From: a virus
UHGV virus genome: UHGV-0195695
DNA: 19,996 bases
Strand: one strand, 5' to 3'
Under the pieces are notes generated by a model. The model saw only the letters and a program-made list of their open reading frames with translations. It was not told where the DNA came from and did not search any database. The number at the start of each line of letters is the position of its first letter. Positions within the stretch are counted from its first letter, which is position 1. Made by a program: the position numbers and the translations under genes. Shown piece by piece: positions 1 through 4,908 of the stretch.

Positions 1-64
1 ATTTCCATCTATAAGCCACCTCGATGTGGCGTCAATGAGTGTAGCACTGACTTTTGTTTCGTCC

Positions 65-87
65 ACAAAAAAGCCCGCAGCGCGGGT
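65..87 (-). terminator. Putative intrinsic terminator for leftward transcription
   Basis: GC-rich inverted repeat CCCGC/GCGGG at 74-86, preceded on the + strand by an A-run (65-72) that gives a U-tract on the - strand transcript. Confidence 0.35.
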
Positions 88-696
88 TTACCAAAACTTG
101 TACCACGGGGATTTATCCTTCAATGGACAATCCTTCCATCGTGTGGCCAGCCATTCATATTCTTTGTCTTTTCTTCAGTACCGGCTTTGCATCTTCTACA
201 CCCTGAAAGATGTCGTTTTATGGTGTATCTGATGATTTATTCCCTAACAATAGATATTCGAAAAATTAATCAGTTAAAACAATTATTTGGATAATTTCAG
301 GTAAAAACTATCTTAATCTACTGGTGGATCTCAATGCGCCGTGACGGTATCGGGATTAAGGGCGTGGATATTCGCGATATATGCCGCTACACCCCTCAAC
401 AGTAATAGATATGCGCTTTTCACGCTCTCCTTTCACTGCTGAGAACGGCAACAACGTGCCACAGGAACGCGCTGTAATCGATTCTGACGCACTTAATTGC
501 GTTGGGTAATGGTTTGCCAGCCTGTGGGGGTAACTCTGTTTTATGAGGCTTTGGCTATAGTGCAAAAATGCACTTTGTCTTGCCTCTCAATTTGATGAGA
601 CTGGAACGACAACAGGACAGACCACCAGCAACAGTTACCGTATTCAGCCGTTCTGTGGCACCAGTGGAACTATCCACCCCTGCTTTCAGCAATGTG

Positions 697-852
697 TTTG
701 CGGGTTATTTTGGGGCGTTTGCGGGTTATTTGGGATGTTTTGCGGGTTATGCGATGCTTGAATAATGAACAGTGCATTTTGCAACATATTGATACTAAAG
801 AACAAAAAATAGTTAGCACGCTAAGATAACCCGGTAACCCGCATAACCCGCA
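697..852. repeat. Iteron cluster copy 1 (ori/crr-like): direct GCGGGTTAT repeats, AT-rich spacer, inverted TAACCCGC repeats
   Basis: TTTGCGGGTTAT at 697-708, 718-729 and 739-750 (21-bp phasing); AT-rich spacer 760-825; inverted copies TAACCCGG/TAACCCGCA at 827-852. Same motif and architecture as the cluster at 9922-10051. Confidence 0.6.
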
Positions 853-1236
853 CTGTTTTGTATATATATACGAAAAATTGCATTCAGGAGGGGGGATCGA
901 AATCCCTACAACCCATTGCTTATGGGACCGCCGCCTCGTCAAATTTTTACACCCGCGAAATAAAAAAATACTTCACGCTGGTGGGCATGATGCTGATATG
1001 GGAGGGTTCCATAACGCCACCATTCGAAACTATGCAAATCTGCATAGAAAAGGGGATGCCTGATACAATACCCTCGCCCGATAAAATCACACCGATAAAC
1101 TCATCTGCCACGAGTAGAAAGAGCGAACGAACCCGATACGCAGTAATGCTTGTCGGGTCCAGCTTTTTAAGGCGGCTGTAGATATCAGGCCATCCGTGAT
1201 CATCCACCAGCGTAATTGCTGAACGCTTTAAAAAAA

Positions 1237-1260
1237 CGTGTACATAAGGGTGTACATAAT
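1237..1260. repeat. TGTACATA tandem site, copy A (candidate integrase arm-type or operator site)
   Basis: CGTGTACATAAGGGTGTACATAAT; 22/24 identical to 1449-1472 about 210 bp downstream. Confidence 0.55.
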
Positions 1261-1378
1261 CAAAAACCGCATTAGAAAGAAACCAGCTACAATGCGGCAT
1301 TGAAGCCAACACTCTACAAACAGATTCAGAATATCGAATAAGCTATCAGTAAAAATCACCAAGCAGCAAAAAAACACA

Positions 1379-1406
1379 AAGCCCGCGAAATGTCGGGCTT
1401 TTTTGT
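1379..1406 (+). terminator. Putative intrinsic terminator
   Basis: Stem GCCCG(1381-1385)/CGGGC(1394-1398) with 8-nt loop, extended by AA/TT, followed by a T-run at 1399-1405. Confidence 0.5.
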
Positions 1407-1448
1407 TATCATGAGCTATCATAACGACGCAACAAAGCGCACAATGTG

Positions 1449-1501
1449 CGTGTACATAGAGGTGTACATAATGACTTTCATGTACATTGCTTTATGTACA
1501 C
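1449..1501. promoter_or_regulatory. TGTACATA site array immediately upstream of the integrase start (copy B plus two extra half-sites)
   Basis: CGTGTACATAGAGGTGTACATAAT at 1449-1472, then ATGTACAT at 1480-1487 and ATGTACAC at 1494-1501; it ends about 30 bp before the int ATG at 1530. Confidence 0.5.
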
Positions 1502-1529
1502 ACCCATATTCGATATTCAGGTATTCGCA

Positions 1530-2798
1530 ATGCCAAAACTCACAGATATGCAGATCCGCGCATGGATAAAGGCGGGAGACAGATTTGATGGCAAGGCAGA
1601 CGGCAACGGCCTTTATATTTGCTACCCCAAAAACTACACAGTCCCGTTCTGGCGATTCCGCTATAAGCTCGCAGGAAAGCAGCGGGCTATGGTTATAGGC
1701 TCTTACTCCGAACTGTCACTATCAAAAGCCAGAGAAACAGCAAAAGAGCTGTCAGCCAGAGTTGCTCTTGGCTATGACGTAGCAGCAGAGAAACAGGAAC
1801 GGAAAGCTGAAGCATTGGCAAAAATGGAGGCTGAGAAAAACGCCATGCGCGTTTCAGATCTGGCCTCCGAATACTTCGAGCGCCAGATACTTCCGAGATG
1901 GAAACATCCCGATATCCTTCGCCGGAGAATTGATAAGGATATTAACCCCTGCATTGGGCATATGAAGGTAGAGGACGTTAAGCCACGCCATATTGACGAC
2001 ATGCTGAAAGGTATCGTTGACCGAGGAGCACCAACGATAGCAACAGATGTATTACGCTGGACACGCCGTATCTTTGACTATGGGATAAAACGCCATGCTC
2101 TGGAGATAAACCCTTGTTCAGCGTTTGAAGTATCTGATGCTGGTGGTAAAGAGGTTTCCCGTGACCGTTGGCTAACTCGCGATGAGCTTATCAGGCTATT
2201 CGAGGCTATGCGCACCGCAAAAGGATTCAGCCGCCAGAACGAACTGACATTTAAGCTATTGCTGGCACTGTGCGTTCGTAAGATGGAGTTATGCGCCGCA
2301 CGATGGGAAGAGTTTGATTTAGATGGTGCGGTATGGCATTTGCCGGAAGAACGCAGCAAAAACGGAGACCCTATTGATATACCTCTACCTTCTCCAGCCG
2401 TTGAATGGTTGAGAGAGCTACACACCTTTTCATGTAATAGCGCATGGGTGCTTCCGGCCAGGAAGATGCAAAACAGAATGATCCCACATATTCAGGAAAG
2501 CACTTTACCCGTAGCACTGGCTAAGGTTCGCGCCGAAATGCCGGATGTGCCTAATTTCACGATTCACGACTTCCGGCGTACCGCACGTACTCATTTAGCA
2601 GCATTGGGGGTTGATCCTGTCGTAGCGGAACGATGCCTCAATCATCGCATTAAGGGTGTAGAGGGGATTTATAACCGCCATCAGTATTTTGATGAGCGTA
2701 AAGCTGCGCTGGCACAGTGGGCTGATCTGCTGGTGGAACTGGAAAGCGGAAATGACTACAACGTAACGCCATTCGATAAAGCCCGGAGGCAAATGTGA
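1530..2798 (+). CDS. int: Tyrosine recombinase, P4-type phage integrase (422 aa)
   Basis: N-terminal block LTD..I.A.K...DG.GL.....W.FRY..AGKQR...IGSY..LSL..AR characteristic of P4-family integrases; C-terminal catalytic region with HDFRRTARTHL and a tyrosine in GIYNRHQY. Start chosen at the internal ATG 1530 (MPKLTDMQIRAW), not the upstream in-frame extension from 1446, which reads through the TGTACATA repeats. Confidence 0.93.
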   Translation: MPKLTDMQIRAWIKAGDRFDGKADGNGLYICYPKNYTVPFWRFRYKLAGKQRAMVIGSYSELSLSKARETAKELSARVALGYDVAAEKQERKAEALAKMEAEKNAMRVSDLASEYFERQILPRWKHPDILRRRIDKDINPCIGHMKVEDVKPRHIDDMLKGIVDRGAPTIATDVLRWTRRIFDYGIKRHALEINPCSAFEVSDAGGKEVSRDRWLTRDELIRLFEAMRTAKGFSRQNELTFKLLLALCVRKMELCAARWEEFDLDGAVWHLPEERSKNGDPIDIPLPSPAVEWLRELHTFSCNSAWVLPARKMQNRMIPHIQESTLPVALAKVRAEMPDVPNFTIHDFRRTARTHLAALGVDPVVAERCLNHRIKGVEGIYNRHQYFDERKAALAQWADLLVELESGNDYNVTPFDKARRQM

Positions 2799-3445
2799 AC
2801 AACATCTTGAGAAAATCGCCAATCGAACGGCTTTGTTCATCTGTATCGATTACCCCTCATGAAATGGCTGTGGCCTTGGCTGGCCTAAACCCATCTATGC
2901 GCATTAGCGATGTGCCTGAGGAAAATTTCGAATATGTCGATTTTGTCAGAACTCATCTTGCCAGAGCTATCAAGGTGTACAGAGGTGAAAAAACTAGTAA
3001 AGACGAGCCTTGCCATGCCCTTGATATTTTCTTAGCTTCTTACCCATTTATTGACACAAATACACCAGAAATAATTGTTCAGAAAATATCAGAAGCGATT
3101 GATGATTTGCGTGGCACCAAGGGCTGGGAAGAAAAAGCCCGAAACCTTGGAGGACTCCAGTTAGTAAACTACATCAAAGAAACCAACCGCAGCGGACGTG
3201 GGCAGCATAGAAAGCAGGATGAGGAAAACGGGACAATGAAAATGATGGGGTTGATAGTACATCTGCTGATAAAAAAATCAGGCTCATCTTCCTACATCCA
3301 AAATGGGAAACCTAATCGCACAGCTATATACCGTGACATAGAAACCTTAATCAAGGATGAAGGGATATCCCATAAAGGAATAGCAAAAGCCACATTCCTA
3401 GAAAAAATCTCACGGGCTTTATTAGCTGTCCACGATCTCGACTAA
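2795..3445 (+). CDS. Hypothetical protein (216 aa), low-GC orphan ORF between int and alpA
   Basis: Long ORF with a GTG start overlapping the int stop (2795-2797 GTG, int stop 2796-2798). Clearly more AT-rich than its neighbours. I recognise no motif in it. Confidence 0.55.
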   Translation: MNNILRKSPIERLCSSVSITPHEMAVALAGLNPSMRISDVPEENFEYVDFVRTHLARAIKVYRGEKTSKDEPCHALDIFLASYPFIDTNTPEIIVQKISEAIDDLRGTKGWEEKARNLGGLQLVNYIKETNRSGRGQHRKQDEENGTMKMMGLIVHLLIKKSGSSSYIQNGKPNRTAIYRDIETLIKDEGISHKGIAKATFLEKISRALLAVHDLD

Positions 3446-3916
3446 TCACTTTTCACGCCCCTCCAAAGCAATGGCGGGGCATTACCTGTTTACCCATCTC
3501 CACCAGCATAGATAATTCTATGCCTAGCCATTGCTATATCTGTTCGGCTTAGTTCATCTGTAATCACCCCATCTCTAAAAGATACGCCAGCTATCATTAG
3601 CCATTTTAAGCCATCATGAGCCATTATAAACCGACTCAACCAATTGAATAATAAAAGATAAAAGGAAATGTAAAAACATGATGAATGACGATGAAAGATA
3701 TAACTCTTTGATAAAACAATGATTTTTTAAACTGGTAACTAATTGAAAATAAAGAAAATAATTATCCCACCTGCATTTGCAATCTTTCAGTGGATCGGTG
3801 TTTTTTCAATAGATTTATAATTTCTTTCAATAGATTCTAGTCTTAATAGAAATACTGTATGGGCAACCACTAAACTTTAAGTAACTTCATGAGCTATCAG
3901 AGAGGTTACTAGAGAT

Positions 3917-4135
3917 ATGACAGCACACAAGCCAGCATCATCAGCTATCCCAACAACTGGATACATCCGTCGCTTTCGCATGCCGGAATTGCTAGGTGTT
4001 TCACTGCCTACTATTGATAGATGGGTTAAAAATGGCACTCTTCCACGCCCAGTGAAGCTGACAGATAACGTGACTGCGTTTGATGCGGTGGAAATTAATA
4101 ACTGGCTGGCAGAACGCCGAAACACATCAGCCTGA
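3917..4135 (+). CDS. alpA: AlpA-family phage transcriptional regulator / excisionase-like HTH protein (72 aa)
   Basis: YIRRFRMPELLGVSLPTIDRWVKNGTLPRPVKL...AFDAVEINNWL matches the AlpA-type HTH pattern; GAGAGG RBS upstream; canonical position downstream of a P4-type int. Confidence 0.8.
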   Translation: MTAHKPASSAIPTTGYIRRFRMPELLGVSLPTIDRWVKNGTLPRPVKLTDNVTAFDAVEINNWLAERRNTSA

Positions 4136-4209
4136 TTAAATGACTACGGGGGATGACGTTCAACCCCACCAGCAAACAAAAGTAACTTAATTTAATAGCA
4201 GGTGTTTTT

Positions 4210-4908
4210 ATGAAACTGCGAAAAACGCCCGTACAGGGGCAGGGCTTCGTTCGGCCTGAAACCAGCATGAGCGATATTCTGGTTCGCCACAAAGCGGAGT
4301 CGCGCATTGATTCCCGCTTATTTGCTGAGCGTATTGGCATAAAGCACAAAAACCTTTATTCGCTCATTCAGAAGCACAAAACCGGATTGCGTGAACTGGG
4401 CATCCTTCCGTTTCAAACGGAGCGATTAAAAACCCGTCAAAACGGGGAGCGTGAACATAAGTTTGCCCTCCTGAATAGCGATCAGTTTGATTACATGTGT
4501 CGCATTGTGCGCGGTCGTGATGATGAACGCATGAACCGCTTCAAGCTGGATGTTACGAAGGCATTCGCAAAACATCGCGCTACCGAGCCTGTACGCCGTG
4601 AATATCTGCCAGGCTATCACGAAAGCCGTGACGGGCTTAAAGCACTGGGCGCAGAACGTCACCATTACATCAATCTGGCACGCGCAGAGAACCGTGTTAC
4701 AGGTCTGGTAACTGGCGAACGAGGCACAGCCAGCGAGCAGCAGTTAGGCTTGCTGATTGTCATGCAGAAAATCGAACAGGCCGCATTTGAGGAGGCGATA
4801 CAGAACGGCATGACACCTACCGAAGCAGTGCGGGAGGTTGCCCGACGCATGGAGACATTCGCCAGCCTGATGACATCTGAGCCGTATCTGGGGGTAAATC
4901 ATGCTTAA
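4210..4908 (+). CDS. Rha-family phage regulatory protein (antirepressor-type)
   Basis: Residues from MSDILVRHKAESRIDSRLFAERIGIKHKNLYSLIQKH ... FQTE ... NGEREHKFALLNSDQFDYMCRIVRG ... FKLDVTKAF follow the Rha-domain pattern. The true start may be the internal ATG at 4264; 4210 has the better RBS (AGGTG). Confidence 0.7.
   Translation: MKLRKTPVQGQGFVRPETSMSDILVRHKAESRIDSRLFAERIGIKHKNLYSLIQKHKTGLRELGILPFQTERLKTRQNGEREHKFALLNSDQFDYMCRIVRGRDDERMNRFKLDVTKAFAKHRATEPVRREYLPGYHESRDGLKALGAERHHYINLARAENRVTGLVTGERGTASEQQLGLLIVMQKIEQAAFEEAIQNGMTPTEAVREVARRMETFASLMTSEPYLGVNHA

What the first reader, a model, noticed from the sequence alone, without database searches (positions are those of the whole stretch)
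2795..3445. Low-GC orphan ORF in the int-alpA slot with a long AT-rich region behind it
Seen directly: a 216-aa ORF, clearly more AT-rich than int and alpA, starting with a GTG that overlaps the int stop, followed by about 470 bp of very AT-rich non-coding DNA (3446-3916). Established knowledge: the int-proximal region of P4-like and PICI-like satellites is a recognised variable hotspot that often carries anti-phage or accessory genes. The protein has no motif I recognise, so it is a candidate single-gene defence or accessory function.
Basis: partly seen in the sequence, partly recalled or inferred. Interest (0 to 1): 0.55.

Follow-up and report, generated by a model that had tools for sequence, protein, structure and literature searches.

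The report
Integrase-coupled gene upstream of satellite switch
The 216-codon gene is real and under selection, but it is not a swappable defence gene: it belongs to a small uncharacterised protein family that always sits directly behind the integrase of enterobacterial phage satellites, and it may regulate the satellite's master switch gene alpA.

Summary
A 216-aa GTG ORF (2795-3445) overlaps the int stop and has a GGAGG ribosome site. A 471-bp, 34% GC spacer separates it from alpA.

It is not an orphan. It belongs to a rare Enterobacterales family (35 clusters among 1.84 billion proteins). The family has no Pfam, NCBIfam or PADLOC hit, and a confident AlphaFold model (pLDDT 90.6) has no fold relative.

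- **Position:** in all 36 loci with upstream sequence, the family gene follows a P4-type integrase, usually overlapping its stop, and precedes alpA.
- **Range:** it occurs in several satellite types and down to 21% identity.
- **Cargo:** real swappable cargo (Abi_alpha, Mrr nuclease, a STAND-like NTPase, an IS) lies between this gene and alpA.
- **Alternatives:** islands whose integrase is 85-97% identical carry unrelated genes in the slot instead.

The spacer is structured: hairpins, 10-bp iterons, an AT-rich stretch, then four TTCAATGGAAT-like repeats starting about 120 bp before alpA. That array is found only where the family is present and does not follow AlpA similarity.

Best reading, inferred only: a DNA-binding regulator of the alpA promoter. 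Defence is unlikely but not excluded.

The parts
1530..2798 (+). P4-type tyrosine integrase (Arm-DNA-bind_3, Phage_int_M, Phage_integrase domains). Its last codons carry the ribosome site and start codon of the ORF.
2785..2789 (+). GGAGG Shine-Dalgarno sequence, 5 nt before the GTG and inside the int coding sequence.
   Evidence: similar sites lie before every family member examined
2795..3445 (+). The 216-aa ORF (WP_001059729.1). It is a member of an uncharacterised integrase-coupled family. It is all-helical, with an acidic N-terminal part (residues 1-130), a conserved basic loop GRGxHRKxDE (134-143) and a basic C-terminal three-helix part.
3457..3523 (+). Two hairpins just after the stop codon (3457-3480, GC-rich, and 3506-3523). 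They are terminator-like but lack a clear U tract. The first is conserved in related islands.
3589..3628 (+). Four 10-bp phased iterons (AGCYATNNNN), including two copies of TCATNAGCCAT.
   Evidence: Comparable 10-bp tandem iterons of different sequence occur at the same place in other family-bearing islands, and their copy number varies from 0 to 9 between near-identical islands.
3629..3787 (.). AT-rich spacer (overlapping 300-bp windows 3451-3900 are 29-36% GC). In related islands this is where cargo genes or an IS are inserted.
3788..3851 (+). Array of four direct repeats: CAGTGGAT at 3788, CAATAGAT at 3807, CAATAGAT at 3828 and TAATAGAA at 3844, spaced 19, 21 and 16 bp. The first lies about 126 bp before the alpA ATG. 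This is the candidate operator array.
3887..3899 (+). TCATGAGCTATCA, 18 bp before the alpA ATG. It is identical to a 13-mer at 1409-1421, which lies between the att core and the integrase start.
3917..4135 (+). alpA (Phage_AlpA HTH), the master activator of Gram-negative PICIs according to the literature.
   Evidence: PMC6092414; PMC11773190

Best explanation
The ORF encodes a sequence-specific DNA-binding regulator. It is made together with the integrase from the int transcript (shown: overlapping stop and start codons with an internal ribosome site). It acts on the promoter region of alpA, the satellite's master activator. The proposed mechanism is inferred, not shown. The basic C-terminal part (a conserved Arg-Gly loop followed by three helices) binds the four TTCAATGGAAT-like repeats that start about 120 bp before alpA, and possibly also the 10-bp iterons 200 bp further upstream across the AT-rich spacer. 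The acidic, fast-evolving N-terminal part mediates oligomerisation or contact with a helper-phage protein. The likeliest polarity is a repressor that keeps alpA silent in the integrated state until a helper phage relieves it. That would be a functional analogue of the Stl/Rpr repressors of Gram-positive PICIs. An activator or sensor role fits the data equally well. The stretch between the ORF's hairpins and the repeat array is an insertion-tolerant hotspot. It holds no annotated gene in this island.
For: 1. Fixed position and coupling. In 36 of 36 loci with upstream DNA, the integrase ends within -38 to +98 nt of the family gene's start, mostly -4, -1 or +1. A Shine-Dalgarno-like site lies inside int in each. 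This holds in E. coli yicC islands, O157 islands, ssrA-site islands, Klebsiella, Yersinia, Serratia, an induced 16.5-kb capsid-forming satellite deposited as a phage, and an excised 12-kb circular form.
2. An alpA-like gene always follows, at 309-666 bp, or at 1.9-5 kb when cargo or an IS is inserted.
3. Repeat array. Under the strict pattern, the scanned loci that carry the TGGAAT-type family each show at most one cluster, always on the + strand between the family gene and alpA. Several further loci, L161 and L163-L165 (also L037/L038, where no array was read), fall below it; their arrays were read by eye. The first repeat lies 117-126 bp from the alpA ATG in six islands.
4. The array was also seen in loci not used to define it: L022 by the pattern, and L161, L163, L164 and L165 by eye.
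5. The array follows the family and does not follow AlpA similarity. AlpA proteins of array-bearing islands are only 17-58% identical to the window's and have different recognition helices. Islands L011-L013 have AlpA 61-70% identical and integrase 85-97% identical to the window's, but they have another slot gene, a 106-112-bp spacer and no array.
6. One protein-DNA covariation. The ssrA-site subfamily replaces the otherwise near-invariant Lys204 and the Ser/Ala-Thr/Ser pair of the last helix with GRGTFYEVLK. It has a different repeat, ATCCGGAC three times about 21 bp apart, at the same place.
8. Literature. The phage-encoded inducer of alpA is unidentified, and whether Gram-negative PICIs have a global repressor is described as unclear (PMC6092414). 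In EcCIMP1 the region from -449 to +50 of alpA confers helper-dependent induction (PMC11773190).
Against: - No experiment bears on this protein.
- The helix-turn-helix assignment is not established. HMM searches of PDB sequences and three fold searches gave nothing significant.
- The repeat motif was defined on some of the same loci. The strict pattern misses several arrays that were read by eye.
- Only two or three independent array-less lineages serve as negative controls.
- The array could instead be bound by AlpA (a known autoactivator), a host factor or the helper's inducer. In that case the association with the family would reflect only shared descent of one cassette.
- EcCICFT073 appears to have no gene between int and alpA (the gene after alpA is called ORF3) yet is helper-inducible. 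The family is therefore not a universal part of the switch.
- Repressor versus activator polarity is not addressed by any data here.
Confidence: 0.4

Rival explanations
1. The ORF is an integrase accessory factor. It is made in fixed ratio with Int and helps assemble or bias the recombination complex, or it autoregulates the int promoter.
For: Start and stop codons are tightly coupled to int in every context, across integrase clades only 24% identical. In the window, a 13-mer TCATGAGCTATCA between the att core and int recurs 18 bp before alpA. In the O157 island the adjacent 12-mer CATAACGACGCA is shared in the same way (each about p = 0.015 against shuffles).
Against: Integrases 85-97% identical to this one sit in islands without the family, so Int does not need it. 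The sharing of sequence between the int upstream region and the spacer is absent in nine other family-bearing islands. At 216 aa with two domains it is unlike known small excisionase-type directionality factors, and AlpA already covers the excision requirement in studied PICIs.
Confidence: 0.2
2. The ORF is a single-gene anti-phage or accessory cargo protein carried in the int-proximal hotspot.
For: The int-alpA interval is variable between islands with near-identical integrases. PICIs are reported to carry immune systems at their 5' ends (PMC11364771). The gene has lower GC than its neighbours. The family diverges fast: 21% identity where the integrases are 72% identical.
Against: There is no PADLOC hit. 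It was never found away from an integrase or inside other defence contexts. Recognisable defence cargo lies downstream of it, between conserved flanks formed by the family gene (92% identical) and alpA (96% identical). It has no enzymatic or nucleotide-binding motif. It comes with a conserved cis-element array, which cargo genes do not.
Confidence: 0.12
3. The ORF and the iteron-rich spacer form a second replication, partition or packaging module, with the protein acting as an iteron-binding initiator, centromere-binding or packaging-site protein.
For: The spacer has two sets of repeats flanking an AT-rich stretch, which is the layout described for PICI origins (PMC6092414). In the capsid-forming satellite, one spacer repeat set reads TGTTCATC, which I recall resembling the P4 origin iteron (my own recollection, not checked here).
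Against: The island already has a canonical origin right after its primase gene: TGCGGGTTA twice, an AT-rich stretch, then TAACCCGCA four times inverted, at 9923-10050. Those iterons are unrelated to the ones in the spacer. The TGGAAT array keeps a fixed distance to alpA, which points to a promoter element. The excised chimeric element L014 combines this cassette with a different primase module.
Confidence: 0.08

Closest known systems
Stl/Rpr master repressors of Gram-positive PICIs (SaPIs)
   Same: Both are satellite-encoded and co-oriented with int. Both lie next to the switch region that controls excision and replication genes. Both are highly diverse between islands, and in both cases accessory genes can be inserted close by (PMC6092414). 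The two-part design, a putative DNA-binding part plus a fast-evolving part, fits a sensor-repressor.
   Different: There is no sequence or fold similarity. Here the gene lies downstream of int and points the same way as the regulated gene, whereas Stl/Rpr is divergent from it. No repression or phage-protein binding has been shown.
AlpA/Vis/excisionase-type regulators of P4-like elements and Gram-negative PICIs
   Same: They sit in the same neighbourhood, are putative DNA binders of the same switch region, and are found in the same satellite types.
   Different: AlpA is about 70 aa with a Phage_AlpA/HTH_17 domain. The ORF is 216 aa, has no such domain, and only one of 19 members gives a chance-level AlpA hit (E 0.024). 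The repeat array does not follow AlpA similarity.
Alternative occupants of the same slot: the 281-, 316- and 260-aa hypothetical proteins of E. coli 042-type yicC islands
   Same: They hold the same position between a near-identical integrase and alpA, in the same orientation, and also lack any Pfam domain.
   Different: They are not homologous to the family (hhalign probability below 1%). They are not overlapped with int (gaps of 18-95 nt) and are followed by only 106-112 bp without repeats. They share with one another a roughly 40-aa N-terminal motif.
DNA-binding domains with a minor-groove Arg-Gly arm next to a helical bundle (Hin/resolvase and homeodomain-like domains; the Q/RGR motif of H-NS and Lsr2). 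This is a lead recalled from memory.
   Same: There is an invariant Arg135-Gly136 in a basic loop (GRGxHRK) directly before a basic three-helix segment, and AT-rich target DNA lies next door.
   Different: No sequence or structure search supports any relationship. It remains a resemblance only.

Membership tests
phrog_30524 (PHROGs, unknown function) | Full-length match to the family profile | tested here: met
   E = 3e-34, residues 11-209 against profile positions 14-213 of 220.
Known anti-phage defence systems (PADLOC-DB 2.0) | Match to any defence protein model | tested here: not met
   0 families at E up to 1.
Defence or accessory cargo of a satellite hotspot | Variable presence between conserved flanking framework genes, and occurrence in other defence contexts | tested here: not met
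   The gene is itself the conserved flank. L005, L008 and L162 share the family gene and alpA but differ in the cargo between them. The gene was never seen away from an integrase. However, the whole cassette is replaced by unrelated genes in islands L011-L013.
Stl/Rpr-type PICI master repressor | Helix-turn-helix DNA-binding domain | tested here: inconclusive
   The C-terminal three-helix segment is basic and gives only weak helix-turn-helix hints. No significant match was found.
Stl/Rpr-type PICI master repressor | Divergent arrangement with the regulated operon and operators in the shared intergenic region | tested here: not met
   The gene is co-directional with alpA. A candidate operator array is present upstream of alpA.
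Stl/Rpr-type PICI master repressor | Represses island genes and is relieved by a helper-phage protein | not testable with these tools
   This needs reporter, deletion and interaction experiments.
Excisionase / recombination directionality factor (AlpA, Vis, Xis) | Small (under about 100 aa) winged-helix or HTH_17/Phage_AlpA domain protein | tested here: not met
   The protein is 216 aa with no such domain above threshold.
Phage-inducible chromosomal island / phage satellite (the host element) | int, an alpA-type regulator and a primase-replicase with an adjacent iteron origin; no phage structural or lysis genes; size about 10-20 kb | tested here: met
   int, alpA, a DUF927 primase and the origin at 9923-10050 are present. 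A 12,152-bp excised circular relative exists. By SatelliteFinder's criteria, int plus AlpA plus primase is only a low-completeness 'Type C' PICI (PMC10085698). Helper-dependent induction was not testable.

The most novel reading that the evidence does not exclude
The family is the missing link in the induction of Gram-negative phage satellites. It would be a regulator with a fold that has no known relative, co-translated with the integrase. It would hold the alpA promoter through the TGGAAT repeat array and be switched by a helper-phage protein through its fast-evolving N-terminal part. The unrelated proteins in the same slot of other islands would then be analogous sensors for other helpers.
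Probability: 0.25. Interest if true: 0.8.

Novelty: new variant of a known kind. Interest (0 to 1): 0.55.

Why it matters
How a helper phage switches on alpA is an open question. [quoted passage not shown]

This family gives a concrete candidate that can be cloned, and the repeat array gives a defined DNA target. Both can be tested by gel shift and reporter assays in a widespread set of E. coli (including O157), Klebsiella, Yersinia and Serratia satellites.

The result also relocates the 5' cargo hotspot. In family-bearing islands the insertion zone lies between this gene's hairpins and the repeat array. That helps the search for defence genes and prevents this gene from being scored as one.

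Tried and rejected
- **Family libraries:** Pfam, NCBIfam and PADLOC gave nothing for the ORF. A Pfam scan of 19 members gave only chance-level hits.
- **PDB sequence profiles:** the whole family and the C-terminal part alone gave nothing.
- **Homology to the other slot proteins:** rejected. An eyeballed resemblance between N-termini got hhalign probability 0.18%.
- **Rfam on 2700-4300:** only a sub-threshold CRISPR-repeat hit at the hairpin.
- **Promoter and terminator scan:** no better than shuffles.
- **Reverse search for the repeat array in viral contigs:** it returned 120 unrelated tandem repeats with no int, alpA or family gene, so it was uninformative.
- **Viral-contig searches with distant members P0022, P0028 and P0032:** nothing found. 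P0032 was not on record.
- **Spacer as the replication origin:** rejected, because the origin lies after the primase gene and uses different iterons.
- **The motif TCATNAGCYAT as a general link between the int promoter and the spacer:** not general.
- **K-12 CP4-57 as a control:** too distant to be informative (integrase 48% and AlpA 21% identical).
- **Literature:** the Cell 2022 paper on PICI immune systems is not held. No paper mentions the accession numbers or the PHROG.

Full report
**Observation**

The window carries an E. coli island, and bases 1400-4200 are 100% identical to NZ_CP064847. In that record the island lies between yicC and dinD. Its gene order is int, hypothetical, alpA, Rha, AntA, Bro-N, Icd-like, DUF927 primase, SSB, ProQ/FinO and PerC, followed by four large unknown genes.

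The ORF at 2795-3445 is as described: 216 aa with a GTG start. The GTG overlaps the int stop codon (GTGA), and a GGAGG lies 5 nt upstream, inside int. GC content is 0.43 for the ORF, 0.49 for int, 0.48 for alpA and 0.34 for the 471-bp spacer. Between alleles, non-synonymous differences are 0.11-0.27 per site while synonymous sites are saturated at 0.77-0.88. It is therefore a selected coding gene.

**What the protein is**

Pfam, NCBIfam and PADLOC give nothing. PHROGs places it in phrog_30524, of unknown function.

A word-indexed search found 19 relatives of at least 65% identity. An exhaustive profile search of 1.84 billion cluster representatives found only 35, down to about 23% identity. 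Named sources are E. coli, Salmonella, Klebsiella, Buttiauxella, Yersinia, Serratia and Rouxiella.

Conserved positions are Thr90-Pro91, Gly119, the loop GRGxHRKxDE (Arg135 nearly invariant, Gly136 invariant) and Gly195 with a following S-T-F-Y-x-K helix.

**Context**

Every family member whose neighbourhood could be read lies directly after a P4-type integrase. In 36 of 36 loci the integrase end is within -38 to +98 nt of the family start, mostly -4, -1 or +1. A ribosome site lies inside int in each case.

The contexts examined were:
- the O157:H7 yicC island, where the family protein is 68% identical;
- Klebsiella;
- Yersinia and Serratia yicC islands, 21% identical;
- ssrA-site islands of E. 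coli, 23% identical, in a cluster of 1438 sequences;
- other sites;
- a 16.5-kb induced element deposited as Escherichia phage vB_KppS-Ant, which has terminase, capsid and portal genes, no annotated tail genes apart from one labelled tape measure, and an int-family-regulator-primase layout;
- a 12,152-bp circular 'plasmid' that is an excised island carrying the identical protein.

An alpA-like gene always follows.

**Is it cargo?**

Two observations pull in opposite directions.

First, islands at the same site with integrases 97, 93 and 85% identical carry unrelated 281-, 316- and 260-aa genes in the slot. hhalign probabilities against the family are below 1%. Their alpA alleles are only 66-74% identical to the window's. 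The match to the window ends about 24 nt before the end of int. In the circular element, the block int-ORF-spacer-alpA is window-type, and the sequence from the 3' part of alpA onwards is 042-type. So the ORF, the spacer and most of alpA travel together as one block.

Second, within the ssrA-site subfamily the family gene (92% identical) and alpA (96% identical) are conserved flanks, and the content between them differs:
- three genes in one island;
- a 1490-aa STAND/NACHT-like gene in another;
- Abi_alpha plus an Mrr-type nuclease in a third.

An IS256-like transposase sits in the same interval of another lineage.

The gene is therefore a framework gene that bounds the hotspot, not the hotspot's content. 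About 203 of the 335 E. coli genomes with this integrase clade carry the family.

**The spacer**

The spacer has an ordered layout:
- hairpins after the stop codon;
- four 10-bp phased iterons at 3589-3628;
- a 29-36% GC stretch;
- four direct repeats (CAGTGGAT, CAATAGAT, CAATAGAT, TAATAGAA) at 3788-3851.

The same layout recurs in every family-bearing island examined. The iterons differ in sequence between islands and vary from 0 to 9 copies among near-identical islands, which explains spacer lengths that differ in 10-bp steps.

The alpA-proximal repeats keep a TTCAATGGAAT-like consensus from E. coli to Yersinia, Serratia and the capsid-forming satellite. Spacing is similar, and the first repeat lies 117-126 bp before the alpA ATG. 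With a strict pattern, each locus that scores has exactly one cluster, and it lies at this place. The looser arrays of L161 and L163-L165 fall below the pattern and were read by eye.

Islands L011-L013 lack the family. They have 106-112-bp spacers and no array, although their AlpA proteins are 61-70% identical to the window's. AlpA proteins of array-bearing islands go down to 17-31% identity and have different recognition helices.

The ssrA-site subfamily differs in the last helix (GRGTFYEVLK, lacking the otherwise near-invariant Lys204). It has a different repeat, ATCCGGAC three times, at the same position.

The island's replication origin is elsewhere and uses other iterons: 9923-10050, after the primase gene.

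**Interpretation**

The tight coupling to int, the basic C-terminal part with an invariant Arg-Gly loop, and a conserved repeat array that follows the family and not AlpA all point to a DNA-binding regulator of the alpA promoter. This is an inference.

The literature leaves room for such a factor. AlpA is the activator needed for induction, its transcription is switched on by the helper phage through an unidentified inducer, and the existence of a repressor in Gram-negative PICIs is called unclear (PMC6092414). In EcCIMP1, the region from -449 to +50 of alpA confers helper-dependent induction (PMC11773190).

I put this reading at 0.4. The rivals are:
- an integrase accessory role, 0.2. It is weakened because near-identical integrases occur without the family, and because the shared 13-mer between the int upstream region and the spacer is not general;
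- a defence protein, 0.12;
- a replication or packaging module, 0.08.

The remainder is unassigned.

**Comparison with known systems**

In function it would work like the Stl/Rpr repressors of Gram-positive PICIs, but it is not a member of that group. It shows no homology, and the gene is co-directional with the gene it would regulate, where Stl/Rpr genes are divergent. It is not an AlpA/Xis-type protein and not a PADLOC defence protein. No paper in the library mentions its accession numbers or its PHROG.

**Verdict**

The finding is a real, uncharacterised, integrase-coupled family with an associated cis-element array, and it is of moderate interest. It would be of high interest if binding to the array and control of alpA are shown.

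Noticed in passing
window 12136-19797 (+): Four co-directional, abutting genes of 843, 686, 918 and 104 aa lie at the island's 3' accessory end. None has a Pfam or PADLOC hit at E up to 1e-3, and all are annotated hypothetical. This is a candidate unknown multi-gene cargo, possibly a defence system.
   Followed up: partly
window 1-1341: The left part of the window is not yicC as in NZ_CP064847. It looks like the right end of a second, related island in tandem. It carries the same origin iterons (TGCGGGTTA-type at 696-750 and 826-852) and GTGTACATAA repeats at 1239-1261. These mirror the repeats at 1448-1500 across the att core CAGATTCAGAATATCGAATAA at 1320-1341.
   Followed up: partly
window 9923-10050: A canonical PICI-type replication origin lies directly after the DUF927 primase gene: TGCGGGTTA twice, a 45-bp AT-rich stretch, then TAACCCGCA four times in inverted orientation.
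   Followed up: yes
window 1409-1421 and 3887-3899; L002 10626 and 12793: A 13-mer TCATGAGCTATCA between the att core and int recurs 18 bp before alpA. TCATNAGCYAT occurs 5 times in the window against 0.13 expected. In the O157 island the adjacent 12-mer CATAACGACGCA is shared in the same way. This is not seen in nine other islands. It remains unexplained.
   Followed up: partly
L015, L023-L039 (spacer after the family gene): Among near-identical capsid-forming satellites the spacer length changes in 10-bp steps from 576 to 666 bp, because the iteron CAGCATTCAA varies from 0 to 9 copies.
   Followed up: yes
L014 (NZ_CP148430, 12,152 bp, circular): A record deposited as a non-mobilizable plasmid is an excised satellite. 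Its int-ORF-spacer-alpA block is 99% identical to window 1230-4119, joined inside alpA to a 042-type replication module.
   Followed up: yes
L011 7356-8201, L012 7273-8223, L013 7311-8093: The unrelated proteins that fill the int-alpA slot in other yicC islands share with one another a roughly 40-aa N-terminal motif (LPxxxFxSLxRAAxLLxCEVxDL), and two of them share a C-terminal stretch. They have no Pfam domain.
   Followed up: partly
window 3490-3639 (-): A 49-aa TTG ORF on the minus strand lies inside the spacer. It is not annotated in any of 113 E. coli records, and the region aligns with frame-breaking gaps in related islands. It is probably not a gene.
   Followed up: partly
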